A DNA stretch of 64,000 bases from a virus. Shown piece by piece: positions 46,956 to 62,848 of the stretch. The notes beneath the pieces are model-generated. The model saw only the letters and a list, made by a program, of their open reading frames with translations. It did no database searches and was not told where the DNA came from. The stretch's first letter is position 1. Each line of letters starts with the position of its first letter. The stretch lies in the IMG/VR virus record IMGVR_UViG_3300024262_003767. One strand, given 5' to 3'. Position numbers and translations under genes: made by a program.

Positions 46956-49472
46956 TTAGGCTTCTAAAAGTGGAGTTTCATCTTTTGGTGGTAATTCTTT
47001 ACTATTCAAATTAACAATAGTAATCTCACCATCTTTACTTCTAAGTGAAACTTTATCACCAATTTTAATTTCACCATTGAGAATAGCATCTGTTAGAGTA
47101 TCTTCAATGTGTCGTTGAATTGCTCTTTTCAATGGTCTTGCACCATATTCAGCATCCCATCCTTCTTCAAATAAGAAGTCTTTAAGTGACTTTGTGATAT
47201 TTACAACATAACCAATATCTTTAAGTCTATCGAGAGTTGTTTTAATTTCAAGGTCAATAATTCTGAAAATGTTGTCTTTTGAAAGAGCGTTGAACATTAT
47301 AAGTTCATCAACTCTATTAAGAAATTCTGGTGCAAATTTCTTTTTCAATTCTTTATCAATAACAGCGTTCTTCTTATCTTGAATGTTTTTGTTGGTGGCA
47401 TTTGTTTGAAATCCCATACCTGTACCAAAATCTTTAAGTTGTCTTGAACCTGTATTCGATGTCATTATGATAATTGCGTTTTTAAAATTAACTCTTCTAC
47501 CATAACTATCAGTAAGAATTCCATCATCAAGAACTTGTAGAAGTATATTAAATACGTCTGGATGCGCTTTTTCCATTTCATCAAGAAGAACAATTGAATA
47601 TGGTTTTCTTCTGATGGCTTCAGTTAATTCACCACCATCATCATAACCAACATATCCTGGAGGCGCTCCAATCAATTTTGAAACTGAATGTTTTTCCATA
47701 TATTCAGACATATCAATTCTAATGAGGTTTTCTTCTGAACCAAAGAGTTCTTTTGCTAGAACCTTTGCTAAGTAAGTTTTACCGACACCTGTAGCACCTA
47801 AGAACATAAATGTTCCGACAGGTTTTTTAGGATCTTTGATACCAATTCTACTACGTTTGATTGAACGAACAATTTTATCAACAGCATCATCTTGTCCAAT
47901 AACAATATTTTTCATTTTAGTTCCAAGATTTCTCAATTTGTTTGATTCATCATCATCAACAGCATCAAGTGGGATTTTGGTCATCATTGAAACAACTTCA
48001 GCAATATCTTCTTTTCCAACGATTTCACGATTTTCGTCCAATTTTTCGTTCCATTCCTCTTTCAATTTTTTCAATTGTTCTGTAAGGTTTCTTTCTTTAT
48101 CTCTCCAAGAAGCAGCTTTTTCAAATTTCTGTTCGTCAACACATTCAGTTTTCTTTTTCTCGGCTTCTGAAATTTTACTTTCAAGAATAGAAATAGCTTT
48201 AGGTTGATTTGAATTTGAATCTACATGAACTTTGGCACCAGCTTCATCCAAAGCGTCAATTGCTTTATCTGGCATAAATCTATCATTCATATATTTATCA
48301 GTCAATTTTACACAAGCTTCAATTGCTTCATCTGTGTACACGACTTTGTGATAATCCTCATATCTAACTTTGAGTTGTTTAAGGATTTCAATAGTTTCTT
48401 CAATGGTAGTAGGTTCTACCACAACTTTTTGAAATCTTCTTTCTAATGCACCATCTTTTTCAATATGTTTTCTATATTCTTCGAGAGTAGTTGCACCAAT
48501 ACATTGGAATGTTCCTCTTGCTAATGCTGGTTTTAACATATTAGATGCATCAAGTGAACCTTGTGCGCTACCAGCACCAATAATTGTATGAATTTCATCA
48601 ATAAAAAGTATAATGTTTGATGTTTCTTCAATTTCTTTGATAATTCCTCTTAAACGAGATTCAAATTCGCCACGATATTTTGTTCCTGCAACAAGGGCAC
48701 CCATATTAAGGGTGAAAATTCTTTTATCTTTAATGTTGTTTGGCACTTTACCATCAACAATTCGTTGTGCTAAACCTTCAACAATTGCAGATTTGCCAAC
48801 TCCAGGCTCACCTATAAGAATAGGATTATTTTTCTTTCTACGTGAAAGAATTTGACTTATTCTTTTAATCTCAATTTTTCTACCAACAACTGGATCGAGA
48901 GAACCTTCTTTTGCTTTTTTGGTAATATCTTCACCAAATTGTTCAATAAGTTTAGGTTTCTTATTTTTATTTGATGCTGTTGTATCACTATGATGCATTT
49001 CTGGATCATCCCAATCTGCACTATTACTTATTCCAGTAACTTTTTCGTGTAATTTTTTAATTATCTCACCTTCATCAATTTTTGAAAACATATCATTTAA
49101 AATATTATTTTTAGTATTTAAGAGTGAAAGTAATACTACATCAGTATCAACATATTTGACATCCATTTCATCAATTATTCCAACACAATTTTCAAGTATG
49201 TCCGTAACTTCTTGTGATAATTGTACTTTATCTTTTCTCTCTGCCAATTGAATATGCTCCATTTGGTTTCTCATTACCAAAGCATCTTGAATAGTTTTTT
49301 TGATTGTTGGAATACGAATATCAATTTCTTGAAGAACTTGATAAGCACGATAATTTTCATCCTCAATTAGAGCCAAAAACAAGTGTTCTGGTTCAATTTC
49401 AGATGATTTATATTGCAACGCAATCGTCTTACTATTCTTAATCACATTATCTACGTCTTTGTTAAAGTTCAT
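46956..49472 (-). CDS. clpC: ClpC-type AAA+ unfoldase (Clp_N, two AAA modules, UVR-like M-domain)
   Basis: Clp_N repeats ([16 protein letters not shown]); Walker [19 protein letters not shown] and GATGVGKT; UVR motif [11 protein letters not shown]; sensor-2 [10 protein letters not shown]. Confidence 0.9.
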
Positions 49473-49538
49473 AATTAATTTTTTTAGTTATAATTTATAT
49501 ATTTAATTTTCTTTATAGGAGTTTTCCTCTTTTGTTTA

Positions 49539-49760
49539 TTAAAATAAATTGAAAATATCAATGTTTTTTGTTTCTCTCTCAAATATCATACCAAGATAAA
49601 ATAATGGAAAAAAGATAATAGATGCTACCCAAATATATATTCCTCGTACAAACCAAGCTGGTTTGATAAATGGTATCGCCCAATTTTTATATAAGTCCCA
49701 ATCTTCTTTCACAAAATTTAGATAAATATATAACATATATTTTGCTATAAATATTTTCAT
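49539..49760 (-). CDS. Small membrane protein
   Basis: Hydrophobic WVASIIFFPLFYLGMIF. Confidence 0.3.
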   Translation of the reverse strand: MKIFIAKYMLYIYLNFVKEDWDLYKNWAIPFIKPAWFVRGIYIWVASIIFFPLFYLGMIFERETKNIDIFNLF

Positions 49761-49777
49761 TCGTTTTTTATTATTTT

Positions 49778-50080
49778 TTAATCTTTCTCAATCGTGAGTG
49801 TTAATCCTTGTTCTTCAAGTGCGGATTTAAAAGGTTTTAATTTATCTTTTGAACCAGTTTTTAAGATACTCGCACCTTTCATATGAACTGTCCAAGCTGT
49901 GTTTTCAGCTTTTTCTGGACTAAAACTCATAATTGATATCAGACATAAAATTACATGATCAAAAGAATTGACTTCATCATTCCATAAAATCAATTTATAG
50001 ACTTTATCATCCGATGGTTCAATACCCGCTTTACTGAGTATTTCTTCTAATGTTTTTGTTATTTCTTTTGTGTCGCTCAT
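49778..50080 (-). CDS. clpS: ClpS adaptor protein
   Basis: YKLILWNDEVNSFDHVILCLISIM...AENTAWTVHMKGASIL matches ClpS (YKVILLNDDYTPMEFV...ATQLML.VH..G). Confidence 0.85.
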   Translation of the reverse strand: MSDTKEITKTLEEILSKAGIEPSDDKVYKLILWNDEVNSFDHVILCLISIMSFSPEKAENTAWTVHMKGASILKTGSKDKLKPFKSALEEQGLTLTIEKD

Positions 50081-51375
50081 ATTCCTAATTCCTCTTTATA
50101 TAGTTTAACAGTATTAAAGTTTCCAGTATATTTTCCTTCACTATCAGACAACTTTACACAATCTCTCCAAACTTTCATTCCTTCAGGTAAGGCTTCAGAC
50201 ATCTTAATTACCATATTTAAAGGTTTTGCCTTTTTTAAAGTTTCCATAAAATAACCACCATTTGGATTTGGTATCGATTCCCAATTAAATTGGTTATGAT
50301 AATCTTCATCATAGATACCATTTTGTGAAACCAAAACAACATCGTTTGATAGCCAAGTACCTATACCATAGGAAGATAATATTTTATTTCTCACACAATT
50401 TTCAATTGTTTTAATTTTTTCTATACTATTTATAGAGTCAGAAAATACAATTGTTTTTGGAATCATACCATTAGGCATTTTAATACCTTTATTTATGTAA
50501 TGTTTGATAGTTTTTTCTGCGAATTCAACAGGTTCACCAGAATCTTGACGAACACCGTCAAATAATTTTGAATAAAATAAATCAAAACCTTCAAAGAAAA
50601 TATCTGTTGTATATGTATCAGAAAGTGCAATTCCTAATGCTCCTTTATAAGCATCTACCCAACGACCCATTCCTACACGATTAGCCATCATCACACCGTA
50701 TTTAGCAGCGTGAAACATAAACCATTCGTGTGCCTGAGTTCCAATTGCTTTAATACCATATTTACGAGCAAACATCACATTGGATGTACCAACGATTGTT
50801 TTTGGTGCAACTTTCAAAAATTCTTCAATAACTCTACCTTGGATAAATTTTGAAAATCTTCTGCGGGTTCCAAATTCAGATAATGAAATTCCAAGTTCAG
50901 ATAATTGTTTAAATTTTTCATCCCAAATTTCCATTGACTTTTCTAAGTCAACTTCTTCACCTGAGAAAAGGAAGAATAATTCTGATATTAAAGCCATTAA
51001 TTGAACTTCCCAAAATATAGTTTTGTGCCAAAAACCTTCAATTTCTATTTCTAATACACCATTTTTTTGAGTAACTTTAACTTCATTAGGATCATATTGA
51101 TAACTCCTAAGATACATATAATAGGAAATATCAAAGAATGGAAGTTTACTTTTCAAATGTTCTTCAATTTCTTTGGTAAATTTTAAATTTTTGAAATGAG
51201 CAATCTGTTCTTTTAACTCGGTAGCAAAACCTTTTGGAAATTTACGGGTTTTATCTCTGAGTATGAACTTATACTTAACCTTAGCGTTAGGATAGTGTTT
51301 TAGTATGGCAAATTGCATGAAATACTTATAGGCGTCCTGATCATCAAATTCGGTAATTATTGGTTTAAATCTCAT
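50077..51375 (-). CDS. pncB: Nicotinate phosphoribosyltransferase (PncB/NAPRT)
   Basis: Colinear with E. coli PncB: DDQDAYKYFMQFAILKHY, LPFFDISYYMYLRSYQYDPNEVKVTQKNGVLEIEIEGFWHKTIFWEVQLMALISE, EFGTRRRFS, VGTSNVMFARKYGIKAIGTQAHEWF. Initially mistaken for NAMPT. Confidence 0.9.
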   Translation of the reverse strand: MRFKPIITEFDDQDAYKYFMQFAILKHYPNAKVKYKFILRDKTRKFPKGFATELKEQIAHFKNLKFTKEIEEHLKSKLPFFDISYYMYLRSYQYDPNEVKVTQKNGVLEIEIEGFWHKTIFWEVQLMALISELFFLFSGEEVDLEKSMEIWDEKFKQLSELGISLSEFGTRRRFSKFIQGRVIEEFLKVAPKTIVGTSNVMFARKYGIKAIGTQAHEWFMFHAAKYGVMMANRVGMGRWVDAYKGALGIALSDTYTTDIFFEGFDLFYSKLFDGVRQDSGEPVEFAEKTIKHYINKGIKMPNGMIPKTIVFSDSINSIEKIKTIENCVRNKILSSYGIGTWLSNDVVLVSQNGIYDEDYHNQFNWESIPNPNGGYFMETLKKAKPLNMVIKMSEALPEGMKVWRDCVKLSDSEGKYTGNFNTVKLYKEELGI

Positions 51376-51376
51376 A

Positions 51377-52078
51377 TTATAAAAATTTTCCTATTGTTTC
51401 TGATTCAATTTCAATATCTTTTACTGAATTAATAACAAGTATATTATAATCGATTACTAACATTTCAATATATTTATCTAATTCTTCTTCTGTTCCTAAC
51501 CCTTTTGTTGCGGCAAGATTTAAGATAACTTGAAATCCAGCATTGGACAAATCCTTTAAAGTTTCACCTACACAGTAATTAAGTGCTAATCCACCAACAA
51601 TAATTGTTGTTATATTGTGATAATTATAAAATTCAATCAACCCAGTCGAAATTTTACCTTCTTGATCGTGATAAACACTTGTGTAAGGGTGTAGGTGTGG
51701 ATCGACTCCCTTATTTACAATAAAGTTAAAATCTTCAATTTTACCAAGTTCATCAAGAATTTCCGAACCAAATGTTCCTGATTCACAATGCAAATTCCAA
51801 AACATATCAACATTTTTGTGTCCAACTATAGGTGTGAATTGAGGATTTTCTTCAGTTGCTACCCATAACGCATTTTTTGAGTGCATATCTCTTGATATGG
51901 TTTTAACAATTCCTATTAAATTTTGTTTTGCTAATTCTTTACCAATTAGGTGTCCATCAGGTACAGGTAGTTCATTAGGACAGAGTGGAGTAAATCCCTT
52001 TTGAGGGTCAACGTTGTGACTTGCTGTTCTTTCGCTAATCACTCTAATCTTATTCGTATTTTCAAAACTTATATTCAT
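51377..52078 (-). CDS. pncA: Nicotinamidase (PncA, isochorismatase family)
   Basis: VDPQKGF (Asp), NLHCESG, KGVDP (Lys), IIVGGLALNYCV (Cys), in PncA order. Confidence 0.8.
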   Translation of the reverse strand: MNISFENTNKIRVISERTASHNVDPQKGFTPLCPNELPVPDGHLIGKELAKQNLIGIVKTISRDMHSKNALWVATEENPQFTPIVGHKNVDMFWNLHCESGTFGSEILDELGKIEDFNFIVNKGVDPHLHPYTSVYHDQEGKISTGLIEFYNYHNITTIIVGGLALNYCVGETLKDLSNAGFQVILNLAATKGLGTEEELDKYIEMLVIDYNILVINSVKDIEIESETIGKFL

Positions 52079-53033
52079 AATATTTTATTTATTTTTATGT
52101 TACAAAAGTAATACTTTTTTTAATAATAAAAAAATTGTATTGTTAAAGAATAACAATACAATTTTTATTCGTGAATTCTTTTAAAGTTTTCAATATATTT
52201 AGACATATTTACGGAGCCTATAATATTTTGAGTGTGAATTATACATATTGGTAATTTTTCATTATTATCAATACAGTAATCACACAACCATTTGACACAC
52301 TCCATACCTGTTTTTTCGGTGTATTTTGAGTAATCAACATCATCTTGATTTAATAAATATTGATAATGTTCATCTGCTAAATCGTGATCAAAACTAATCA
52401 TTTGAGGTAAACCATTTAACTCAATACATTTAATAAATTGATCGTAAGACCTAACAATAACCCAATCGAGATTTATATAGTCCATATTTTGTGTATAGTA
52501 ATATGCGTCCTCATAATTTCCATGAGGGGAATATGGAACTCTTTCATCATCTAAAAACAAATTGTACATAATTTTACCTTTTAAGTGTGCTAAATTAATA
52601 AAAAAAATTGGAATAAAAAATTACAGTTTCTGTAACATAGTTATTATTTCGGTTAATGTTTCATCGTAATTGAGAATTCTTTTGTGTAAACTCTCATATC
52701 TTTCGTGGAAAAAGACATCACGATTTTTTACTGTAATATATGTGTCGTCTTTTTTGAAATTTATCTTAAATTGGTAGTTTCTATTATCATACTCAATATT
52801 ATGAATAACTTCATTATATTGAAAATCTCTCCACGTTCTACTAAATCTAGTTTTAATAACAAATTTGCATGGTTCATTTTTAAAAACCTTATTTAGATTT
52901 TCCAGTTCAATACGTATATGTCGTCCTCTTTGGTTATACATATTATATTCATCTATTTTTGTTATCATAATCACTATATATAAAAAAAACCTCCCAAAAA
53001 ATTGAGAGGTTTTTTAAGATTAAACATTAAAGT

Positions 53034-54539
53034 TTACTTCTTATCAGGTTTTTCAGTTTTTTTGGTTTTTGCTTTTTCTTCAAGCAATTTAACCATATCT
53101 GCATTACCTTCTAAGAATCCAGGCATATTCTGACCAACCATTTTAAAAGCGTCATCCATTGGAGGAACAGATTTTAAAAGGTTTGTCAACCAATTAGAAG
53201 TAGATGATCCAGCACCTTCACCACCATTACCAGTATCCCAAACTGTGATGTTATCAAATTTAATTTCTTTGATAGCTTCAACTTGAGTTCTAATAATTTC
53301 TGGAAGTTTGTCTGCAATCATCATTTGGACAGCCTTATCAGGATCACCACCCGCTGCACTTACATAAGCGGCAAAACCTTCGGCTTGTTTTGTCATTTGT
53401 TCAAACGTACCACGAGCCTGAGCATCCATCATAAAGAATACTCCATCAGCCTTACCTTTTTCAACTCTACGAATTCTTTCAGCTTCAGCCTCAGCATCTA
53501 CTTCAATTTTTTCTTTTTGAATCTGTGCAGGTACAACAATATCAGCGAATTTTTGAGAACGTTCTCTTTCTGCTCTCGCATCTTCAGCGATTTTCTCAGC
53601 TTTGTATGACTCTTCAAGAGCGTTTGCTGATTTTGTTTTTTGAGCAACGACAATTTTACGATCAGCCTCAGCTTCGGCTTCTCTCCTACCAGCAATAGAA
53701 TTTGCGATTTCAATAGCCGCTTTATTTTCACCATCAACAGCAGTTGAGTTAAAGGCTGCAGTATCAATTCTCATATTCTTATCTGCTTCTTTTTCACCAA
53801 TAACGGCTCTTGAATTAGCAGATGCGACTTTAATTCTTTGCTCTCTTTGAGCCTCAGCGACACCAATATCCCCATCTCTATCTTTCTCAGCAACTGATTT
53901 CTTTGCTTCGTTAATAGCCTGAGCCGCAGCTTCTTTACCAAGAGCCTCAATATAACCAGATTCATCATCAATATCTTTAATATTAACGTTGATAAGTTTC
54001 AAACCAACTTTCTTAAGTTCGTTTTCAACATTATCTTGAATCTTACTCAAGAAAGCGTCACGGTTAGCGTTGATTTCTTCAATAGTAAGAGTTGCGATAA
54101 TCGCCCTCATTTGACCAAAAATAATATCCTGAGCCAACGCTACGATTTGTGTATCTTGAAATCCCAACATTCTTTCAGCGGCATTAATTTTGAATTCATC
54201 TTCTGATGAAATCGCAACGGTGTACGTTGAAGGAACATTTACACGAATATTCTGATTCGAAAGTGCAGATTTCAAATCAACTTCAAAAGACATAGGTTTC
54301 AGAGATAAGAACTTGTATTCCTGAATGATAGGCCAAACAAATACACCACCTCCGTGATATACTCTGGCGCTGGCGTGTCCTGACCGTCCTTGTGAGTCGG
54401 CTTTTCCCTTCACACGCCCATATACAACTAAAAGTTGATCAGAAGGGCACCTTTTATATCTTGCTTTAAAAGTAAAGAAGAATGCGAAAAAGGCAATCGC
54501 TGCTAATCCAATGATAATAGCAATCGAAAATGATACCAT
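53034..54539 (-). CDS. SPFH/band-7 flotillin-like protein (YqiK type) with a long Ala/Glu-rich coiled-coil tail
   Basis: N-terminal TM helix, SPFH core, EA-rich repeats AEAEADRKIVVAQ..., 501 aa. Confidence 0.85.
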   Translation of the reverse strand: MVSFSIAIIIGLAAIAFFAFFFTFKARYKRCPSDQLLVVYGRVKGKADSQGRSGHASARVYHGGGVFVWPIIQEYKFLSLKPMSFEVDLKSALSNQNIRVNVPSTYTVAISSEDEFKINAAERMLGFQDTQIVALAQDIIFGQMRAIIATLTIEEINANRDAFLSKIQDNVENELKKVGLKLINVNIKDIDDESGYIEALGKEAAAQAINEAKKSVAEKDRDGDIGVAEAQREQRIKVASANSRAVIGEKEADKNMRIDTAAFNSTAVDGENKAAIEIANSIAGRREAEAEADRKIVVAQKTKSANALEESYKAEKIAEDARAERERSQKFADIVVPAQIQKEKIEVDAEAEAERIRRVEKGKADGVFFMMDAQARGTFEQMTKQAEGFAAYVSAAGGDPDKAVQMMIADKLPEIIRTQVEAIKEIKFDNITVWDTGNGGEGAGSSTSNWLTNLLKSVPPMDDAFKMVGQNMPGFLEGNADMVKLLEEKAKTKKTEKPDKK

Positions 54540-54567
54540 AATTTTAAAATTTAAATGTTAATAATTA

Positions 54568-55134
54568 TTAATTTGATTTACTTACTTTAACTAAATTATC
54601 TGTGATAAATTCAGTTACAATTACTTGTGAATTTGTATCAATTTTTTCACCAGTTTCTGAAAGAGCGTCAATAGTTCTCAATGCGCCACGAATGGACATT
54701 TGAATTTTTCCTCTCTTATCTTTTCCTGGTATAACCAGATACACGGTTGCAGGTTGTTTCAATACATCATTTTTATCGATGTCATTTGGTGTTGCTTGAA
54801 GTTTTTTGAAACCGAACATAATAGATGCGAAGATGATAGTTAGAACTAAACCAGAACCAACCGAAATTATAATTGATAGCCAAGTATTATAACCTTGTTC
54901 AATGCAAAAAACACCTACCCAACCAAAGAATGCTAAAAAATTAATCAAACTTCTTAGAGTAAATGCTTCACCCATTATACCACTTGCACCATCAACATCA
55001 AAATCACCATCTACGTCACCTATACCATCAGCATCCATATCTGAATCCATTCCGAAAAAGGCAGAACCATTCAAAAATAAAAAAATCGCACCGAATACGA
55101 TTGCGATGATGTAAAATACTGTTAAAAGTGTCAT
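54568..55134 (-). CDS. NfeD-like membrane protein (partner of SPFH)
   Basis: N-terminal TM helices and a C-terminal OB-like beta domain (ATVYLVIPGKDKRGKIQMSIRGALRTIDA...VIVTEF); sits immediately upstream of the SPFH gene. Confidence 0.65.
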   Translation of the reverse strand: MTLLTVFYIIAIVFGAIFLFLNGSAFFGMDSDMDADGIGDVDGDFDVDGASGIMGEAFTLRSLINFLAFFGWVGVFCIEQGYNTWLSIIISVGSGLVLTIIFASIMFGFKKLQATPNDIDKNDVLKQPATVYLVIPGKDKRGKIQMSIRGALRTIDALSETGEKIDTNSQVIVTEFITDNLVKVSKSN

Positions 55135-55720
55135 TTGTGTTAATTTAGAGATTAAACTTAATTATTTATCTGTATTTCTTAGTAATCGAAAAATAAAAAG
55201 TTTAGAAATTTTAATTAAAATCACTAAACTTTTATACCCCATAAGGGTTTTTGATCACCTTTCAGTTATAAATTATATTTATCCATTTGATCCATTTGAT
55301 CTTTCACATTCTTTCTCAAATCATCCAAATTTGTGAGTTGTTGTCTTGGATGACGAATTTTCAGTCTATCAGATATTGCATCCAATATAAAAGGTTCTAT
55401 ATCTTGATATCCTTTATTTTCTACCATATCACTAATATCTTTTGGTAACCAAATTTGATAATATTTAAGTTCACTATCAAAATTTCCTCTTGCTTGCAAT
55501 CCTTGTATATTAGACATTCCTTGACGGTCTTTATTAATTTTTATCATCTTTTCAATACCTAGAACTTTTTTAAATCTACCATCTTTTTCTTCAATAAATT
55601 CAGGTCTTGCCACAAAAGCAAATAAGTCATGTTCTTTACTATTTGGATTCATATCAAATAGTTCTTGAAATACTTTTAAATCTTCTTCACTATATCCTTC
55701 AAAATATTTTAAATGTTCCA

Positions 55721-56407
55721 TTATATTACGTTTATTTCATTAGCCATACAAACTTCACCATAATCTTTGATAAGTTTGTCCATATCATCAAATGAGATAT
55801 ATGCAAATCCTTTTTTACCCCATTCTCTACCCCAAGAATTTTTAATTCTTATTAGTTTCTTTTTAACATTAACACCATCTAATAAATATGCGTGTCCGCC
55901 CATTTTATTTCCTGTTGGAGTTATAATACCTTCACTATTTGGAAAAAACATATCATAGTACCACCAAGTACCAACAACAACAGGACCTAATGTTAATAAT
56001 GCGTTTACTGTTGTGTCAATATCCCAAGCCCAATTATATCCATTAATATACCCTGCAGATTGTAAAACTTTAGCACCAGCTCTAACACTAGTTCCATCAT
56101 AATCTTCACCAGGCCAACGATCTATCTTTTGTGCTTCATTATATAAATATTCTGTATCATAAGGTGCTACTCCACCTTTTCTACTTGCTTTTTGTGTTAT
56201 TGGACCAGAGGCTAACCAATGTATCCAACTAAATGCAACACAATGAGGTTTATAACCTTGATTTCCCCACCATCCATTTGTCCACCAATATTTATAATCT
56301 ATACCTGGTAATTTTTTAGGTAGCATTGAACTAATTAGGAATTGATGATCCCTATCATCAGGTTTTATAAATCTACCTAATCTTGATTTTAATTGATTTT
56401 CATTCAT
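55721..56407 (-). CDS. Papain-like cysteine peptidase (C1 family)
   Basis: QGYKPHCVAFSWIH (Cys region, cf. QGSCGSCWAFS), GGHAYLLDG (His), NSWGREWGKKGF (Asn/Trp). Confidence 0.75.
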   Translation of the reverse strand: MNENQLKSRLGRFIKPDDRDHQFLISSMLPKKLPGIDYKYWWTNGWWGNQGYKPHCVAFSWIHWLASGPITQKASRKGGVAPYDTEYLYNEAQKIDRWPGEDYDGTSVRAGAKVLQSAGYINGYNWAWDIDTTVNALLTLGPVVVGTWWYYDMFFPNSEGIITPTGNKMGGHAYLLDGVNVKKKLIRIKNSWGREWGKKGFAYISFDDMDKLIKDYGEVCMANEINVI

Positions 56408-56431
56408 AGAATGTGATTTTTATTCTATATA

Positions 56432-57583
56432 TTAAAATTCAGAATTATAAATGGATTTGTAAAATTTACCCCAATTAAAATACTTATCCATTGTTTGAAA
56501 TATATCATCAAGAGTTATCTTATGAATAAGGTGTTCCATACTCCAACATTCAGGTTCAATATATTTATTGACATTTGCGTGTCTTAATATGTCGTTCTTT
56601 TTTAGTTTAACTAAAAAATTATCTTTAATAATATCAAATCTATCTTGTGTCAAATAAATTTCTTTATTACTTAATACTTTACCTATTTCTTCTTGCAAAT
56701 GCTCTACATTCTTATTTGAAGTCTCAGTTAAGATTGTAACAACTGAAGATGTATTATTTAATTTTTGGTTAATACATTGAACATAATATGCTAATCCTGA
56801 TTTTTCTCTAATTTCTTGATATAGTGGAGAATTTAATCCAGAACCTAACATACTACAAGTATAACTAATTAATGGAAAATCTTCAGTTGCAACATTTGAA
56901 ATATTTATAATTGATTGTTTATTTTTATATTCGTTAATTAACTCTAACGGCACTAAACCTTCGGGTATAATGATATCATCATTAGTTCTAATTCCAAATG
57001 TTTCCGTTTCGATAAATTTGAATGGGGTATTTATAATACTATCTCTAAAATCAACATTAAAATCAAAATCATTGTTTTTAGATACATTAATTATCATTGT
57101 AGGTTTCTTATAGAAAAGATTTAAATATTCTTTACAATCATCTAAAGTGAAATTTTCTATATCACACCTTAATCCTATTGGGTGATAATAACCAAACATT
57201 TTTCTATTTAAATTTAGAAAATGGTTATTCATCTGTTCATTAAATGAATCTTTATATTCTTCCAAAACAATTTTTTTCTCATTTTCTAATTCTTCTTCTG
57301 TTGGATCATAAGATAGAATCAATTCTAGAAATTCATATTTATATTTATTAACATATTCATCCAATCCATTCATATAAAAAACTACTTCTGTATTAGATGT
57401 ATATGCGTTCCAAGCGACACCATATCTTTGAAAATCATCTTGTAAATGTTCAAATGACTTACAAATTAAATGCTCACAGATATGGGAGGCTCCAAATGTT
57501 CCAACTTTTTCTACCATTGTAGATCCATCAAATATTATATAAAATGAGGATAATTCTATTTCACTTTTAATGTTTTTTATCAT
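56432..57583 (-). CDS. M16 (pitrilysin) family metallopeptidase-like protein
   Basis: Inverted zincin HICEH (HxxEH) followed by GVAWNAYTSNTEVVFY (cf. NAFTSREHTVYY). Confidence 0.7.
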   Translation of the reverse strand: MIKNIKSEIELSSFYIIFDGSTMVEKVGTFGASHICEHLICKSFEHLQDDFQRYGVAWNAYTSNTEVVFYMNGLDEYVNKYKYEFLELILSYDPTEEELENEKKIVLEEYKDSFNEQMNNHFLNLNRKMFGYYHPIGLRCDIENFTLDDCKEYLNLFYKKPTMIINVSKNNDFDFNVDFRDSIINTPFKFIETETFGIRTNDDIIIPEGLVPLELINEYKNKQSIINISNVATEDFPLISYTCSMLGSGLNSPLYQEIREKSGLAYYVQCINQKLNNTSSVVTILTETSNKNVEHLQEEIGKVLSNKEIYLTQDRFDIIKDNFLVKLKKNDILRHANVNKYIEPECWSMEHLIHKITLDDIFQTMDKYFNWGKFYKSIYNSEF

Positions 57584-58111: not shown

Positions 58112-61100
58112 TTAAAAATCTGTTATCAAAGATGATATCAAATTATCATTTTTCTTAACAGTTATTAATCCATCATAATTTATTGGATGAACATGCTCAA
58201 TTATAATAATTTTATCAATTTTATTTTTTATTTCGTCTAATAGTTCAATAAATTCCATAACAGATTTTTCATATAATTTGCCCATAATCTCATCAAGAAT
58301 AATAAAATTAGGTCTTGATTTTACATTAATTTGTCTTAATGCAATTTTTAATGTTAATGCACAAAATGTTCTTTCTTTACCTGATGATTCGATTGCATTT
58401 TGTGAAACATCTAATCTATCATCCATACTTAATTTTAAAATTAAATCATCATTAAAGAATAATGTAAAATCAACATTAGTCAATAAGTCGTTCAATTCTT
58501 TATTTATTAGATGTATAGATTTTTTTAGAAGATAAGTAGGAATACCGTCTCTGGATATACATCTCTGGTACTCTTTCATTAGTTCTTCTTGCTTTTTTTG
58601 TTGAATAAATTTCTCAATTCGTGATTGAATATCTTCTATTGATTTTTCTAATAATGCTATTTCTTTTTTAATTTCAGATATTACTATATATTTTTCATCA
58701 ATATTACTTTTCAATTCTAAAATATACACATCTTTATCATCAATGTCTAATTGAGTTTGTTTATTTTCCTCAATTTGTGATTCATACATTTTAAAATTAT
58801 TAATAGTTTGTTCTATTTCTTTAATCTTCAAAAGATAATTATCAATATTTAATGTTAGTTTTTCTTTTAAATTGACTTTATCTTTTCTTAGTTCGTAATT
58901 TTCTTTAATTTTTTCTTCATGTTGAATATCATCTTCAATAGATTCAATATTTAATGATTTTAACTCGTTTTCAAGATTTTTAATTACCGATAAATTGTCA
59001 TTTTTATCTTTATCTAATTTTTTCAATAACATTTTACCTTTATCAAATTTATTTTTTAATTCTTCATTAATTGATAAATCATTATTTTTTAATCTTTCAA
59101 TTAACGATTCAATCATTAATATTTCATTCTCAAGATATTTAGTATCTTGAAGAACGTTTAATTCTGATAATATTTCTTCGTCATATTCACCACTTGTTAA
59201 TTTATCTCGTTTTAATCTGAGAGTCTGAATTTTTTCCTCTAATTCGGGTATAATAGGTGTTAAATCTTTATATTCCTCAATTAAATCCTTTATTTTAATA
59301 GTATTAATTTCTATATCATGTTCTAATGTTTTAATCTTTTCTTGAATGTGTTCTAAATGATCGGGTGTAGATTCGTCATAATCTCTACCACATGCAGGAC
59401 AAAAACTTGAATTTTTAAATTCTTCAATTTCTTGAAGTTTCTCATCATTTCGTGATTTTAAATTTGAACCATCTTTTTTCAGATTTCTAATTTTATTTTC
59501 GAGATTAATTTTTTCAAGTTCATTCTTCTTTATCTCATCTTTAATTGATATTATTTTTGAGTTTATTATACTCAATTTTTCACTTTCAACATTAGAAATT
59601 TCTTTTTCTTTAATGTTAATTTTGTCTTTTAAATTATTAATTTCTTTATCTCTAAACTCTCTAAGTTTTTGTTTTACTTTATCAACCTTCGTATCAATTT
59701 CATTATTATTTGTTTTAACTGATGATATTTCTTCTTTTATTTTTGAAATTTTATCATTAGTTAATTTTAATTTATCTTTTAAATTGTTAAGTTTATCTGG
59801 CTCAAATTTAGAAGGTAATTCATTTATATCTCTATCATAGATACTTATTTGTACTTTATTATCATCAATCTTTTGATTATAATTTGATAATGTATTATTT
59901 GAAATATTCAGATCAAAATTGATCATCGATTCATCAATTTTATTTAATTTTTTAATTAAATTATCTCTTAAAGAATTTTCACTATCCAATTCTAATTTAA
60001 AATCTATAATCAATTTCTTTTGTTCTTTTATCGTATTTTTCTTCTCTTCTATTACATTTACGATTTCAGAAATCTCTTGCTCTGATTGACTAACATCAAC
60101 TATAATTTTTTCAATGTTGAGATCTTTTTTATAATCTTTATATTCATTTTGTTTCTTTTCAAAAATATCATAACCAGCATCTCTAATGATGCTATCCATA
60201 AACACACTTCTATCAGCAGATAAAAGTTCATTCAAATTATCTGCATTAGTTAATGATATTCTAACAAAATCTTTAAAATCACCAAGAATAAGATCTAATT
60301 TCTTTTGAGTTTGAGTTTTTCTTTCACCAGTTTGTTTATTCTTTTCTTTTATTTCTTCAGTATCATAATAGTCCACATTGGTAGAACAAGATTTTATTTC
60401 TCCACTTCTATTTTCATCTCGTTCAGTTTTTCTCAAAATTGTAATTTTTTCACCATCAATATCTAAAACAGCGCCACCTGAACATTTATTTAATTTTCGT
60501 TTATTGTTAATATATCTATTATCACCGTGTTTTTCTCTTTTTACGGTAGTTGTGGTTGTACCATAAAGAATATATGTTATAACATCTAAAATAGTAGTTT
60601 TTCCTTGTTGGTTTTCACCATGAATTTGTATGATACCATTTAAATCTTTCCAATCAATTTTATTTTTATCACCAAAAACTCTAAAATTATCAAACCAAAA
60701 TTTTTCAATTTTCCACTCAATGTTAGTTTTTTGTTCTTTAATCTCTAATCTATCATTAATTAAATCATCAATTTTTAAAATTTCATCAATATCATTTTTT
60801 TTATATCCTTGTTCTTCAAGATATTCTTTAAATATTTTACGTTGAGTTTCAACATTTGTTAAATCTAATGTTTCAGATAACATTTTAGATGAAACCATAT
60901 CTGTATAAATGTATGTTTTATCAAATTTTACTTTGGTTGAATCATATTTATTTTTAATAAAGTTTCGTATTTTTCTTTCATTTTCAGTATTGATGTTGGA
61001 ACTTAAATCTTTCCAATGCACTTTAAATTCAGGAAAATTTCCAATTCTTTCATTTGTGTGTAATGTCAAATTATCATAATCTTCACCTTCATTGATATAT

Positions 61101-61279
61101 AAATTGATAAATGTATATTCATTAAGAATATCTATTTCTTCAACTCTAAAGTCAGTTTTACTTTTTATATCCCAAACCAAAAATCCATGTTTATCAACAT
61201 CTTCACCAAATGATTGTTGAACTGGACTACCAGGGTAACCAATAGTTGGTATTTTTTTCTTTATTTTTATTTTAGACAT
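58112..61279 (-). CDS. sbcC: Fusion ORF: C-terminal half of SbcD/Mre11 (about 190 aa, starting ..IGYPGSPVQQSFGED) joined in frame to SbcC/Rad50-type ATPase (Walker A, coiled coil, CxxC hook, signature/Walker B)
   Basis: IGYPGSPVQQSFGED matches SbcD VRYCGSPIPLSFDE just after motif V; Rad50 N-lobe IEKFWFDNFRVFG...GENQQGKTT; zinc hook SSFCPACG; C-terminal IIILDEIMGKL. Confidence 0.8.
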   Translation of the reverse strand: MSKIKIKKKIPTIGYPGSPVQQSFGEDVDKHGFLVWDIKSKTDFRVEEIDILNEYTFINLYINEGEDYDNLTLHTNERIGNFPEFKVHWKDLSSNINTENERKIRNFIKNKYDSTKVKFDKTYIYTDMVSSKMLSETLDLTNVETQRKIFKEYLEEQGYKKNDIDEILKIDDLINDRLEIKEQKTNIEWKIEKFWFDNFRVFGDKNKIDWKDLNGIIQIHGENQQGKTTILDVITYILYGTTTTTVKREKHGDNRYINNKRKLNKCSGGAVLDIDGEKITILRKTERDENRSGEIKSCSTNVDYYDTEEIKEKNKQTGERKTQTQKKLDLILGDFKDFVRISLTNADNLNELLSADRSVFMDSIIRDAGYDIFEKKQNEYKDYKKDLNIEKIIVDVSQSEQEISEIVNVIEEKKNTIKEQKKLIIDFKLELDSENSLRDNLIKKLNKIDESMINFDLNISNNTLSNYNQKIDDNKVQISIYDRDINELPSKFEPDKLNNLKDKLKLTNDKISKIKEEISSVKTNNNEIDTKVDKVKQKLREFRDKEINNLKDKINIKEKEISNVESEKLSIINSKIISIKDEIKKNELEKINLENKIRNLKKDGSNLKSRNDEKLQEIEEFKNSSFCPACGRDYDESTPDHLEHIQEKIKTLEHDIEINTIKIKDLIEEYKDLTPIIPELEEKIQTLRLKRDKLTSGEYDEEILSELNVLQDTKYLENEILMIESLIERLKNNDLSINEELKNKFDKGKMLLKKLDKDKNDNLSVIKNLENELKSLNIESIEDDIQHEEKIKENYELRKDKVNLKEKLTLNIDNYLLKIKEIEQTINNFKMYESQIEENKQTQLDIDDKDVYILELKSNIDEKYIVISEIKKEIALLEKSIEDIQSRIEKFIQQKKQEELMKEYQRCISRDGIPTYLLKKSIHLINKELNDLLTNVDFTLFFNDDLILKLSMDDRLDVSQNAIESSGKERTFCALTLKIALRQINVKSRPNFIILDEIMGKLYEKSVMEFIELLDEIKNKIDKIIIIEHVHPINYDGLITVKKNDNLISSLITDF

Positions 61280-62148
61280 TTATTTAATTTTATTTTAAAT
61301 TCACCATTTAGAATATTGGTTTCCCAGAACCTTAAAATATTAAAATTATTAGATTTTGAAAGTTCATCTTTAAAAATATCATTTTCAATATTTAACATCT
61401 GAGTCTTATTTAATTCATTTATATTAAATATGTTGGGGTTAGCATGCCAATAATCACCATCTGCCTCAATAATTATATTTTTATCTATTAACATAAAATC
61501 ATATATTTTATATCTTAATTTACCATCAAGTTTATAGTATATTCTAAATTGTGGTTTATATTTTATTGATTTTTCATCTAAAAAATCACCTATAATTTTT
61601 TCTATTTTAGTTTTACTTTTTTTAAATAACCCTTTATGTGCGATTTCCGTCATACTTAAACCATATCTTTCAATGCAAGTATTATTAATTTTTTTTCTAC
61701 ATTCATCGTCTTTCCAATTATGTGTTGTACCATATCGTTCTAAGAACGTATTTTTTCTTTTTATTTTTGATTCAGGTTTCCATCCAAATGGAAATTCATT
61801 ATTTTGATTATATTCTAATTTAGATTTCCTAACTTTATTTTTATAATTTTCATCACTCCACAATTTTTTAGTTATTTTTGAATGTAAATCTTTACTTTCT
61901 TGTGTTTTTACCTTACCAAACATTGGATTTTTTTCACCAACATATATAATTTTTTTATGCTCATCACAACATTTCCTTGAGCAATATTTTTTATCATCAG
62001 ATACTAATACTTCAATATCAACTCCACAATTTATACAATAAATAATTTTTCTTTCAACCTTAGATTTCTTATAATCTTTATATTGACATTTCCTTGAACA
62101 ATATTTCTTATTATTATGTTTCTCACCACAAACTATACATTTTTTCAT
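61267..62148 (-). CDS. Homing-endonuclease-like protein (Zn ribbons, NUMOD3, PD-(D/E)xK-like C-terminus) inserted within sbcD
   Basis: CIVCGEKHNNKKYCSRKC, CINCG...CSRKC; NUMOD3-like GEKNPMFGKVKTQESKDLHSKITKK; C-terminal YKIYDFMLIDKNIIIEADGDYWH. Confidence 0.55.
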   Translation of the reverse strand: MKKCIVCGEKHNNKKYCSRKCQYKDYKKSKVERKIIYCINCGVDIEVLVSDDKKYCSRKCCDEHKKIIYVGEKNPMFGKVKTQESKDLHSKITKKLWSDENYKNKVRKSKLEYNQNNEFPFGWKPESKIKRKNTFLERYGTTHNWKDDECRKKINNTCIERYGLSMTEIAHKGLFKKSKTKIEKIIGDFLDEKSIKYKPQFRIYYKLDGKLRYKIYDFMLIDKNIIIEADGDYWHANPNIFNINELNKTQMLNIENDIFKDELSKSNNFNILRFWETNILNGEFKIKLNKCLK

Positions 62149-62191
62149 AGATTTTTTGTTGTTTTATAGTATATATAAAAATATAATACTA

Positions 62192-62848
62192 CTATTCTGA
62201 TAATATCCAACCATTTTTTAAATATTCATCTAAGTCTTTATCATCTATCTCCATTTCTACTTCTTTATATTTGAAAAACTGCCTTTTATGTATATCACCA
62301 AGAAAAAGAAAATCATTCTTTTTAAAATCATTAATACTCTTGTACATACTATCAGTAAAAAATTTACCTCTATCGGTAGAACTATTTTGTATAGGGTCAT
62401 GAAACAAACCTATATAAATTTGTTCTTTTTTCTTTGTTTGTCCAACCCAAGGATCATTTAATTTGTCAGGGTGATCATATACAACCCAAGATATATTACC
62501 TTCATCATAAATACCTGTTGTGTCATAATATGTCACATTAGGATTATCAATCAATTTAACTACAACCTTTATACTATCAGTTCTATTTAAATTTTTCTTA
62601 CGCAAATCGTGATTACCTCTTGTTATAATAACTTTGGCTATATGTGAAAGTTTGTTTAAAAATTCACCACCGAGTATTTTTGCTTCATTGGAAATTTCAA
62701 TAAAATTTTCAAATAAATCACCAACAATTACAATTTTTTCTGGTTGTCTTATTTTTAATTCGTTATATATTTTTTCAAATACTTCTCTATACTCATCATG
62801 TCTCTCTACATTTCTAATGTGTACATCTGCTAAATGTGCTATCTTCAT
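62192..62848 (-). CDS. sbcD: SbcD/Mre11 nuclease N-terminal fragment (phosphoesterase motifs I-V)
   Basis: LADVHI, VGDLFE, RGNHD, LFHDPI, FLGDIHKRQ (cf. E. coli ALGHIHRAQ); ends about 25 aa after motif V. Confidence 0.8.
   Translation of the reverse strand: MKIAHLADVHIRNVERHDEYREVFEKIYNELKIRQPEKIVIVGDLFENFIEISNEAKILGGEFLNKLSHIAKVIITRGNHDLRKKNLNRTDSIKVVVKLIDNPNVTYYDTTGIYDEGNISWVVYDHPDKLNDPWVGQTKKKEQIYIGLFHDPIQNSSTDRGKFFTDSMYKSINDFKKNDFLFLGDIHKRQFFKYKEVEMEIDDKDLDEYLKNGWILSE

What the first reader, a model, noticed from the sequence alone, without database searches (positions are those of the whole stretch)
53034..55134. SPFH/flotillin-NfeD membrane-scaffold operon in a viral context, with visibly higher G+C than its surroundings
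Gene 54568..55134 is an NfeD-like protein (TM helices and OB domain). Gene 53034..54539 is a 501-aa flotillin-like SPFH protein with an AE-rich coiled-coil tail. They form the classic bacterial NfeD-SPFH pair. By eye the SPFH coding sequence is richer in G/C (for example GCGGCAAAACCTTCGGCTTG, GCCTCAGCATCTAC) than neighbouring genes, suggesting relatively recent horizontal acquisition. The K/L-rich ORFs on other frames inside it are artefacts of the EA repeats. SPFH/NfeD pairs are rare in viruses and could organise membrane microdomains for assembly or superinfection exclusion.
Basis: partly seen in the sequence, partly recalled or inferred. Interest (0 to 1): 0.55.

Follow-up and report, generated by a model that had tools for sequence, protein, structure and literature searches.

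The report
Phage-borne flotillin and NfeD operon
A very large, AT-rich bacteriophage carries a complete bacterial-type two-gene operon for a flotillin membrane scaffold and its NfeD partner. The operon was captured long ago from Bacteroidota-like bacteria and has been kept under selection, so it is uncommon in phages but belongs to a well-known kind of system.

Summary
**Observation: confirmed.**
- 53034..54539(-) encodes a 501-aa flotillin-type SPFH protein.
- 54568..55134(-) encodes a 188-aa short NfeD-like protein. Sequence profiles miss it. Its predicted C-terminal barrel is best matched by four solved NfeD domains.
- The two genes are 28 nt apart, and a terminator-like hairpin follows the flotillin stop codon.
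- The flotillin gene is the most G+C-rich ORF in the window: 38.4% against 27.3±3.0%.

**Interpretation: partly supported.**
- About two thirds of the G+C excess comes from amino-acid composition (Ala 13.8% against 2.8%). About one third comes from unusual synonymous codon use.
- The pair is not a recent arrival. Flotillin from ten related phage-like contigs forms one clade (100% bootstrap).
- Among the viral orthologues dN/dS is 0.11–0.38, and dS matches that of neighbouring phage genes.
- The nearest bacterial flotillins are only 49–57% identical and are almost all from Bacteroidota.
- In 77 of 80 such bacterial loci, a homologue of the viral NfeD lies directly upstream. The operon therefore moved as a unit.

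**Context.** The window is a relative of the 735-kb phage LR756501, which lacks the pair.

**Function in infection.** This is inferred, not shown. The likely role is a membrane scaffold or holdase beside phage-encoded Clp and peptidase genes.

**Novelty.** A new member of a known kind, of moderate interest.

The parts
54568..55134 (-). nfeD-like gene encoding a 188-aa short NfeD (YuaF/YbbJ type). It has three predicted membrane helices (about 3-26, 57-79, 84-110), an acidic loop at 28-56 (10 D/E, 0 K/R) and a C-terminal five-strand OB-like barrel (128-186).
53034..54539 (-). Flotillin-family SPFH gene encoding 501 aa: N-terminal membrane anchor (1-27), SPFH domain (33-220), long A/E-rich helices (about 196-395) and a Lys-rich C-terminal tail.
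   Evidence: Pfam Band_7 E 2e-30. NCBIfam FloT 173 bits over 9-461. PDB flotillin-1/2 E 4e-30. AF2 model. Foldseek top four hits are the flotillin complex structures 9l3g and 9bq2, E 3e-16 to 1.5e-14.
54540..54567 (-). A 28-nt spacer between the nfeD stop and the flotillin start, with no Shine-Dalgarno core. The two genes probably share one transcript.
   Evidence: Sequence. Only 4 of 78 ORFs in the window have an SD-like core.
52984..53015 (-). Intrinsic-terminator-like hairpin (14-bp stem, 4-nt loop, T-run) that begins 18 nt after the flotillin stop codon.
   Evidence: and 85 (inverted repeat I18).
55135..55265 (-). A 131-nt intergenic region upstream of nfeD. It holds an AT-rich 19-nt palindrome (55196-55233) followed by a T-run on the coding strand. 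This may be a terminator for the upstream peptidase operon or a regulatory site. No promoter was identified.
   Evidence: I3. The sigma-70-type scan found no more sites than in shuffled sequence. No TAnnTTTG motif was found upstream.

Best explanation
**What it is (shown).** This is a complete bacterial-type nfeD-flotillin operon sitting in the genome of a very large, AT-rich phage. The phage is related to the 735-kb phage LR756501.

**Where it came from (shown).**
- The operon has the same two homologous genes in the same order as an operon that is widespread in Bacteroidota.
- It was captured as a unit by an ancestor of a clade seen here in about ten related metagenomic contigs.
- It has since been inherited vertically under purifying selection.

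**Why the G+C is high (shown).** The high G+C is mainly a consequence of the Ala/Glu/Gly-rich protein. The rest comes from codon usage that avoids ATA and TTA and prefers ATC, TTC, AAC, GCT, CCT and CGT.

**How it works (inferred from the families).**
- During infection both proteins insert into the host cytoplasmic membrane.
- The flotillin is anchored by its N-terminal helix and oligomerises through its long A/E-rich helices into a dome- or cage-like scaffold on the cytoplasmic face.
- The short NfeD is anchored by three helices and binds and stabilises that oligomer through its OB barrel.

**Most likely use (inferred, modest confidence).** The pair delimits a membrane microdomain that holds and stabilises membrane proteins without ATP. 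This would supplement or replace the host's own flotillin system during a long infection. It would be part of a phage-carried proteostasis kit: ClpS, a ClpA/B/C-like AAA+ protein, and M16 and C1 peptidases nearby.

**How the confidence splits.** The stated confidence covers identity, origin and age of the operon (each about 0.85-0.95). The specific role in infection stands at about 0.35-0.4.
For: **Identity.** for the flotillin. for the NfeD fold.

**Operon anatomy.**

**Bacterial counterpart.**
- The best 80 genome hits are almost all Bacteroidota, at 49-57% identity.
- In 77 of 80 of them, the ORF directly upstream on the same strand matches the viral NfeD profile at E 1e-19 to 1e-38.
- Direct comparison gives 33% identity over the full length.
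- The profile finds 2,691 proteins of about 190 aa. Some score just under the Pfam NfeD threshold.

**Old, vertically inherited, selected.**
- The pair is syntenic in L001, L003 and L006, and is conserved in another neighbourhood in L005.
- The clade has 100% bootstrap support.
- dN/dS is 0.11-0.17 for flotillin and 0.14-0.38 for nfeD. dS is like that of the neighbouring C1 and M16 peptidase genes.

**G+C decomposition and codon pattern.**

**Phage context.**
- PHROG hits to homing endonucleases, SbcCD, thymidine kinase and RNA ligase.
- Window proteins are 41-66% identical to proteins of LR756501.
- In LR756501 the cREC and M16 genes are adjacent. The window therefore has an extra block between them that contains the pair.
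- There is almost no Shine-Dalgarno use, as in Bacteroidota.

**Functional model.** In S. aureus, FloA-NfeD stabilises unfolded proteins without ATP, and NfeD stabilises the flotillin oligomer (PMC11222466). Flotillin and the SPFH-NfeD complex QmcA-YbbJ have solved cage-like structures (PDB 9bq2, 9l3g, 8z5g).

**Proteostasis neighbours.**
Against: - No experiment or expression data exist for this uncultured phage.
- No promoter was found.
- The NfeD protein fails every sequence-profile test for NfeD. Its assignment rests on a medium-confidence model (pLDDT 69.5) plus gene order.
- Both AF2 models are only moderately confident, and TM-scores to the flotillin chains are low (0.29-0.37) because the long helices are posed differently.
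- The proteostasis theme of the neighbourhood could be coincidence. In L005 the pair sits among different genes.
- The window holds no capsid, portal or terminase gene that I could identify, so viral origin rests on homology to phage records and on gene content.
- The Bacteroidota donor and host are inferred at phylum level only.
Confidence: 0.7

Rival explanations
1. The pair is a relatively recent horizontal acquisition by this genome, and its high G+C is the unameliorated signature of the donor.
For: The flotillin gene has the highest G+C in the window and elevated GC3: 0.248 against 0.157 expected, residual z 2.6. nfeD shows a weaker version of the same trend. The closest complete relative, LR756501, lacks the pair.
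Against: - About 68% of the excess is due to amino-acid composition.
- Third-position change is largely A to T, not simply towards G/C: observed A 162 against 235 expected, T 215 against 185.
- Orthologues at 76-88% identity show the same excess.
- The clade is monophyletic at 100% bootstrap.
- dS equals that of neighbouring genes.
- The best bacterial match is only 57% identical.
- The ClpA/B/C-like gene shows a similar codon trend.
Confidence: 0.05
2. The pair serves superinfection exclusion or membrane defence. The phage-made scaffold would alter the infected cell's membrane so that other phages cannot inject DNA, or so that host abortive-infection membrane effectors are blunted.
For: Both products are membrane proteins made from a phage genome. 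Their conservation under purifying selection implies a benefit to the phage. Many superinfection-exclusion proteins are small inner-membrane proteins (general knowledge).
Against: There is no match to any PADLOC defence model. No known exclusion system uses flotillin or NfeD. The operon is an ordinary housekeeping operon in hundreds of Bacteroidota genomes.
Confidence: 0.1
3. The pair regulates a host membrane protease such as FtsH, as HflK/C does for lambda CII. It would thereby control the stability of phage or host membrane proteins rather than acting as a passive scaffold.
For: SPFH cages enclose FtsH in E. coli (PDB 7wi3 and 9cz2 are among the fold hits). The neighbourhood is rich in protease and chaperone genes.
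Against: The protein is of the flotillin subfamily, not HflK/C: PDB flotillin E 4e-30, and HflK/C was not found by sequence. No FtsH-like gene was seen among the window ORFs that were scanned. The short NfeD lacks the ClpP-like protease domain of long NfeD proteins (188 aa).
Confidence: 0.12
4. The window is not viral. It would be a piece of an AT-rich bacterial chromosome or plasmid, and the operon would simply be that organism's own.
For: No capsid, portal or terminase gene was identified in the 64 kb. Many genes are cellular in type: ClpS, a Clp AAA+ protein, NAPRTase, a histidine kinase, a CCA-adding enzyme.
Against: - Several proteins are 41-66% identical to those of the 735-kb phage LR756501.
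- The C1 peptidase's best matches are in jumbo phages.
- There are multiple homing endonucleases, including one between the sbcD and sbcC genes.
- Many ORFs have no known relatives.
- A related contig is an IMG/VR viral genome (L012).
- Huge phages are known to carry exactly such cellular-type genes (general knowledge of Al-Shayeb et al. 2020, not re-read here).
Confidence: 0.05

Closest known systems
Bacteroidota flotillin operon (uncharacterised ~190-aa membrane protein followed by a ~500-aa flotillin), e.g. loci L013 (the flotillin there, P0054, is labelled Proteiniphilum sp.) and L014 (Roseivirga)
   Same: The gene order, gene sizes and predicted architectures are the same. Flotillin is 49-57% identical and the upstream protein about 33% identical over its full length.
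   Different: The window's copy is encoded by a phage, has 38% G+C instead of 40-52%, and forms its own clade.
Bacillus subtilis FloT (YuaG) with YuaF (NfeD2)
   Different: The score of 173 bits is far below the 700-bit equivalog cutoff, so this is not a FloT orthologue. The NfeD sequence is not recognisably similar.
Staphylococcus aureus FloA-NfeD
   Same: It is an SPFH-NfeD operon for which a mechanism has been shown: ATP-independent stabilisation of unfolded proteins, with NfeD stabilising the flotillin oligomer (PMC11222466).
   Different: FloA is a shorter flotillin paralogue. Homology of the partner proteins was not tested here. The function has been shown only in that bacterium.
E. coli YqiJ-YqiK and QmcA-YbbJ
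   Same: YqiK is a flotillin-family inner-membrane protein, 24% identical across its whole length, with a small membrane-protein gene upstream. QmcA-YbbJ is the solved SPFH-NfeD complex (8z5g).
   Different: YqiJ showed no detectable similarity to the viral or Bacteroidota NfeD profile. QmcA is stomatin-like, not flotillin-like.
Flotillin/SPFH genes already annotated in phages (csAssE-Sib, Vibrio phage KIT04, RaK2-like jumbo phages)
   Same: csAssE-Sib and KIT04 encode a 'flotillin family protein' 39% and 32% identical to the window's. In csAssE-Sib a 164-aa membrane protein with an acidic loop lies directly upstream. SPFH proteins have been noted in RaK2-like jumbo phages, function unknown (PMC7760394).
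   Different: These branch separately in the tree, so they are probably independent captures. KIT04 has only an 82-aa membrane protein upstream. The csAssE-Sib partner matches the NfeD profile only weakly.

Membership tests
SPFH / Band 7 superfamily | SPFH domain recognised above the curated threshold | tested here: met
   PF01145 scores 106.5 bits against a cutoff of 23.6, over residues 33-220.
Flotillin subfamily of SPFH proteins | Closer to flotillins than to stomatin, prohibitin or HflK/C | tested here: met
   PDB flotillin-1/2 at E 4e-30 to 5e-23, against PH stomatin at 4e-4. The Foldseek top four hits are flotillin complex chains.
Flotillin subfamily of SPFH proteins | N-terminal membrane anchor, then the SPFH domain, then a long A/E-rich helical (coiled-coil) 'flotillin' region | tested here: met
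   Hydrophobic segment 1-27. A 20% and E 13% in 221-400, with EA runs at 287-291 and 349-353. Modelled helices at 196-237 and 252-395.
Flotillin subfamily of SPFH proteins | Assembly into large membrane-bound oligomeric cages or foci | not testable with these tools
   This needs expression plus BN-PAGE, cryo-EM or microscopy.
FloT equivalog (NCBIfam NF058507) | Score at or above the curated equivalog cutoff | tested here: not met
   173.4 bits against a cutoff of 700. It is a flotillin, but not a FloT orthologue.
NfeD family | Sequence match to the NfeD C-terminal domain model (PF01957) | tested here: not met
   There is no hit even at E up to 10. A PDB profile search also found nothing. Remote bacterial homologues reach 25.7 bits against a cutoff of 29.1.
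NfeD family | C-terminal five-strand OB-like beta barrel of the NfeD type | tested here: met
NfeD family | Membrane-embedded N-terminal part, with the gene directly upstream of and co-directional with an SPFH gene | tested here: met
   Three hydrophobic segments. A 28-nt spacer separates it from the flotillin gene. The arrangement is the same in 77 of 80 bacterial loci and in 14 of 17 IMG/VR loci.
NfeD family | Physical binding of the OB domain to the SPFH partner | not testable with these tools
   This needs co-purification or a multimer prediction, and only single chains can be modelled here.
Long NfeD / STOPP (ClpP-like protease fused to NfeD) | N-terminal ClpP-class serine protease domain | tested here: not met
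   The protein is only 188 aa and has no protease-domain hit. It is of the short (YuaF/YbbJ) type.
Anti-phage defence systems (PADLOC) | Match to any defence-system protein model | tested here: not met
   No hit for either protein or for three of the neighbouring ORFs (orf151, orf117, cREC_REC).

The most novel reading that the evidence does not exclude
Several lineages of huge phages independently or anciently acquired the flotillin-NfeD operon and keep it. They would use it to build their own membrane microdomain in the infected cell. This platform would stabilise or concentrate phage and host membrane proteins, or anchor replication or assembly, during long infections. It would act together with phage-encoded Clp chaperones and peptidases, that is, as a virus-encoded membrane-organising and proteostasis system.
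Probability: 0.2. Interest if true: 0.6.

Novelty: new member of a known kind. Interest (0 to 1): 0.35.

Why it matters
- It adds a membrane-scaffold module to the cellular-type functions that very large phages carry. Others in this window include translation-related genes, chaperones and NAD salvage.
- Its position beside Clp and peptidase genes suggests that these phages manage protein quality, including membrane-protein quality, in the infected cell.
- It exposes an annotation gap. The ~190-aa partner of Bacteroidota-type flotillins has about 2,700 representative sequences, yet current Pfam and NCBIfam models do not recognise it. By fold and gene order it is a short NfeD.
- It is a worked example that a local G+C peak in an AT-rich genome can be mostly an amino-acid-composition effect. 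Such a peak should not be read as recent transfer without checking GC3, orthologues and dS.

Tried and rejected
- **Sequence routes to NfeD.** Pfam at E up to 10, NCBIfam, phmmer against PDB, and a 12-sequence profile against PDB all found nothing for the 188-aa protein. Only fold comparison and a profile search of 1.84 billion representatives linked it to NfeD-like proteins.
- **YqiJ.** hhalign of the NfeD profile against E. coli YqiJ showed no similarity.
- **csAssE-Sib partner.** hhalign against the csAssE-Sib upstream protein gave only a weak match in the acidic loop.
- **Defence.** PADLOC gave no hit.
- **RNA elements.** The Rfam scan of 52500-55800 gave only chance-level matches, E 0.28 and 0.72.
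- **Mobile cassette.** No flanking direct or inverted repeats suggesting one were found.
- **Promoters.** The sigma-70-type promoter scan gave no excess over shuffled sequence. No Bacteroidota-type TAnnTTTG motif lies upstream of the pair.
- **tRNAs.** None in the window.
- **Look-ups that failed.** An exact 35-mer of the window is not in IMG/VR. The contig look-up for P0121 failed. The cluster look-up gave no organism names.
- **Literature.** Searches found no paper describing a phage-encoded flotillin-NfeD pair. The hits were about host flotillins, SPFH proteins in RaK2-like jumbo phages, or a phage that integrates into floA.
- **Deeper tree.** Grouping the window clade with other phage-like flotillin clades has only 35% bootstrap support. 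The number of acquisitions is therefore unresolved.
- **Cause of the residual GC3 and codon bias.** Incomplete amelioration and translational selection could not be separated. The GC3 excess is absent in L005 and L009 but present in L003 and L006.
Full report
**1. What is in the sequence**

The window is 26.9% G+C and densely coded. At the stated coordinates there are two minus-strand ORFs: 54568..55134 (188 aa) and 53034..54539 (501 aa). They are 28 nt apart with no Shine-Dalgarno core. A terminator-like hairpin (14-bp stem, then a T-run) lies at 53015..52984, starting 18 nt after the stop codon of the second gene.

Upstream of the first gene is a 131-nt spacer with an AT-rich 19-nt palindrome. 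No promoter could be named.

The K/L-rich inner ORFs lie on the same strand but out of frame.

**2. The 501-aa protein is a flotillin**

Sequence evidence:
- Pfam Band_7/SPFH scores 106.5 bits against a cutoff of 23.6.
- The NCBIfam FloT model aligns over residues 9-461, but at 173 bits against a 700-bit equivalog cutoff.
- Solved human flotillin-1 and flotillin-2 match at E 4e-30 to 5e-23 over residues 61-459. The next SPFH subfamily (stomatin) reaches only 4e-4.

Architecture:
- One hydrophobic segment at residues 1-27.
- An A/E-rich stretch at 221-400 with EAEAEA runs.
- An AlphaFold2 model (pLDDT 68) with an α/β SPFH domain followed by helices at 196-237 and 252-395.
- The four best Foldseek hits are chains of the flotillin cage structures 9l3g and 9bq2.

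It is therefore a flotillin-family SPFH protein, but not a FloT orthologue.

**3. The 188-aa protein is a short NfeD, shown by fold and context, not by sequence profile**

Sequence methods fail:
- Pfam (even at E up to 10), NCBIfam and PDB sequence searches find nothing.
- The word-indexed search finds only 13 relatives, none with a Pfam domain.

The fold is NfeD-like:
- An AlphaFold2 model from 12 of these sequences (pLDDT 69.5) has three long helices, a disordered acidic loop (28-56; 10 D/E, no K/R) and a five-strand C-terminal barrel.

It has many remote relatives:
- A profile of the 12 sequences, searched against 1.84 billion representatives, finds 2,691 proteins at E ≤ 0.001. The 150 best listed are mostly about 190 aa and matched end to end.
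- A few of these score just below the Pfam NfeD threshold, for example 25.7 against 29.1 bits.

There is no ClpP-like protease domain. It is the short YuaF/YbbJ type.

**4. The pair equals a Bacteroidota operon**

- Three bacterial or bacterial-type contigs were read around close flotillin homologues: P0054 (labelled Proteiniphilum sp.), P0132 (Roseivirga) and P0035 (an unlabelled metagenome contig). Each has an unannotated 189-196-aa ORF directly upstream.
- The ORF upstream of the P0054 flotillin is 33% identical to the viral NfeD over its full length.
- In a scan of one genome per GTDB species, the 80 best flotillin loci are 49-57% identical to the window's. Nearly all are Bacteroidota (Bacteroidales, Flavobacteriales, Cytophagales, Chitinophagales, Sphingobacteriales), with a few Bacillota and others.
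- In 77 of the 80, the same-strand ORF ending just before the flotillin start matches the viral NfeD profile at E 1e-19 to 1e-38. Two of the three exceptions are cut off by a contig end.

The operon was therefore transferred as a unit. The donor is placed at phylum level only.

**5. Viral context**

Evidence that the window is phage DNA:
- PHROG matches include several HNH/homing endonucleases, SbcC and SbcD (with an endonuclease gene between them), thymidine kinase and RNA ligase.
- A 288-aa protein is 65.8% identical to one encoded by the 735-kb uncultured phage LR756501.
- The M16 peptidase, the cREC_REC protein and the hybrid histidine kinase also have LR756501 homologues at 31-54% identity.
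- The C1 peptidase is closest to jumbo phages such as XacN1.

Caveat and host hint:
- I found no virion gene in these 64 kb, so viral origin is strongly indicated but not proven.
- Only 4 of 78 ORFs have an SD-like core, and upstream regions are A-rich. This fits translation in Bacteroidota (inference).

Comparison with LR756501:
- LR756501 has no flotillin.
- Its cREC and M16 genes are adjacent. In the window they are separated by a 3.8-kb block: orf117, flotillin, nfeD, orf151, C1 peptidase.

**6. How old is the acquisition?**

- The pair is present and syntenic in L001 (the same sequence), L003 and L006. In the more distant L005 it sits in a different neighbourhood.
- In a neighbour-joining tree with 100 bootstraps, the ten flotillins of this group form a clade with 100% support.
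- Their grouping with other phage-like flotillins has only 35% support. Those include a 425-kb IMG/VR contig (L009) and L016.
- csAssE-Sib and Vibrio phage KIT04 branch elsewhere.
- Between the viral orthologues dN/dS is 0.11-0.17 for flotillin and 0.14-0.38 for nfeD.
- dS is 0.5-1.8, the same range as for the neighbouring C1, M16 and cREC genes.

The pair has co-diverged with the phage backbone under purifying selection. 'Relatively recent' is not supported.

**7. The G+C signal**

| Measure | Flotillin ORF | Other ORFs / expected |
|---|---|---|
| G+C | 38.4% (z 3.7, rank 1 of 67) | 27.3 ± 3.0% in 66 other ORFs |
| G+C expected from its amino acids with the window's codon usage | – | 34.9% |
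| GC3 | 0.248 (residual z 2.6) | 0.157 expected |
| Ala content | 13.8% | 2.8% |

- About 68% of the G+C excess is therefore compositional.
- The codon pattern is not a plain shift to G/C. ATA is never used (0 of 42 Ile, against 42% in the background) and TTA is avoided. ATC, TTC, AAC, TAC, GCT, CCT, CGT and CTT are preferred. Third-position A is largely replaced by T.
- nfeD and the ClpA/B/C-like gene show a milder version of the same pattern.
- Flotillin is the most or second most G+C-rich ORF in all five viral or viral-like loci examined. The GC3 excess is seen only in the window, L003 and L006, not in L005 or L009.
- I cannot decide whether the residual bias is incomplete amelioration or selection for efficient translation.

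**8. How rare is the pair in viruses?**

- Only 10 of 50,697 phage records match the flotillin by tblastn, and 5 of those match nearly full length.
- Two conserved peptide patterns find 17 IMG/VR contigs among 2.9 million. Many of these are very large, from 113 kb to 597 kb.
- 14 of the 17 have the NfeD-like gene directly upstream. The other three are cut off at the contig end.
- I did not verify that those contigs are truly viral.
- SPFH proteins have been noted in RaK2-like jumbo phages, function unknown (PMC7760394).
- I found no paper on a phage flotillin-NfeD pair.

**9. Mechanism**

Shown: the identities, the operon structure, the origin and the selection.

Inferred from the families:
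- Both proteins go to the cytoplasmic membrane.
- The flotillin oligomerises into a dome- or cage-like scaffold, as in 9bq2 and 9l3g.
- The short NfeD binds and stabilises it through its OB barrel, as in QmcA-YbbJ (8z5g) and S. aureus FloA-NfeD.

In S. aureus the pair stabilises unfolded proteins in membrane microdomains without ATP, and NfeD stabilises the oligomer (PMC11222466). The window's neighbourhood has M16 and C1 peptidases, ClpS and a ClpA/B/C-like AAA+ protein, and L006 has a DnaJ gene. I therefore favour a membrane scaffold or holdase role within a phage-carried proteostasis kit, at perhaps 35-40% confidence for that specific role.

Rivals not excluded are superinfection exclusion and control of a host membrane protease. 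There is no PADLOC match.

**10. Verdict**

The gene identifications are right. The inference of recent transfer from G+C is not supported.

This is a new member of a known kind: a bacterial flotillin-NfeD operon domesticated by huge phages. Interest is moderate. It is an uncommon viral cargo with a plausible but untested role, and it has a useful by-product: a large NfeD-like family that current profile libraries miss.

Noticed in passing
window 46956-50080 and 55721-57583: There is a cluster of proteostasis genes around the pair: a ClpA/B/C-like AAA+ protein (838 aa), ClpS, a papain-like C1 peptidase (43% identical to jumbo phage XacN1) and an M16 peptidase. The related locus L006 also has a DnaJ gene.
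   Followed up: partly
window 50077-52078: An adjacent NAD-salvage pair: nicotinate phosphoribosyltransferase (432 aa) and a nicotinamidase/isochorismatase-family protein (233 aa). The pair is conserved in L001 and L003.
   Followed up: no
window 31774-33954: A 726-aa hybrid sensor kinase (PAS, HisKA, HATPase, receiver) encoded by the phage, with a 31%-identical homologue in the 735-kb phage LR756501.
   Followed up: no
window 28206-29465, 39976-41106, 17501-18367; L005 3787-4227: Translation- and RNA-repair-type genes. These are a CCA-adding/PolyA_pol enzyme, an S1-domain protein, and a 288-aa protein that is 66% identical to LR756501 and 42% identical to cyanophage 'tRNA ligase'. The related contig L005 has SmpB next to the pair.
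   Followed up: no
window 58112-62848: The SbcC-like (1055 aa) and SbcD-like (218 aa) nuclease genes are separated by a 293-aa HNH/homing endonuclease gene (61267..62148). In L006 the corresponding gene is a single 1244-aa Metallophos + AAA_23 fusion.
   Followed up: no
window 54967-55053 (NfeD residues 28-56): An Asp-rich loop (DSDMDADGIGDVDGDFDVDG) lies between the first two membrane helices. It has 10 acidic and no basic residues. It stays acidic in bacterial homologues and in the csAssE-Sib partner, and it weakly resembles calcium-binding TSP type-3 repeats (E 0.79). It may be a cation-binding site.
   Followed up: partly
window-wide; L116 (LR756501 51157-53034): In LR756501 the cREC_REC and M16 peptidase genes are neighbours. 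The window has an extra 3.8-kb block between them (orf117, flotillin, nfeD, orf151, C1 peptidase), which marks a variable site in this phage group.
   Followed up: partly
window-wide: Only 4 of 78 ORFs have a Shine-Dalgarno-like core. Positions -19 to -9 are A-rich and G-poor. This points to SD-independent initiation, as in Bacteroidota. No tRNA genes are present in the 64 kb.
   Followed up: partly
about 2,700 representative proteins (P0134-P0282 listed): The ~190-aa partner of Bacteroidota-type flotillins is a large family that Pfam and NCBIfam do not recognise. By predicted fold and gene order it is a short NfeD.
   Followed up: partly
window 52165-52569: A cREC_REC (cyclic-phosphate processing receiver) domain protein (E 4e-21) is conserved next to the pair in L001, L003 and L006. 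It is 54% identical to an LR756501 protein.
   Followed up: no
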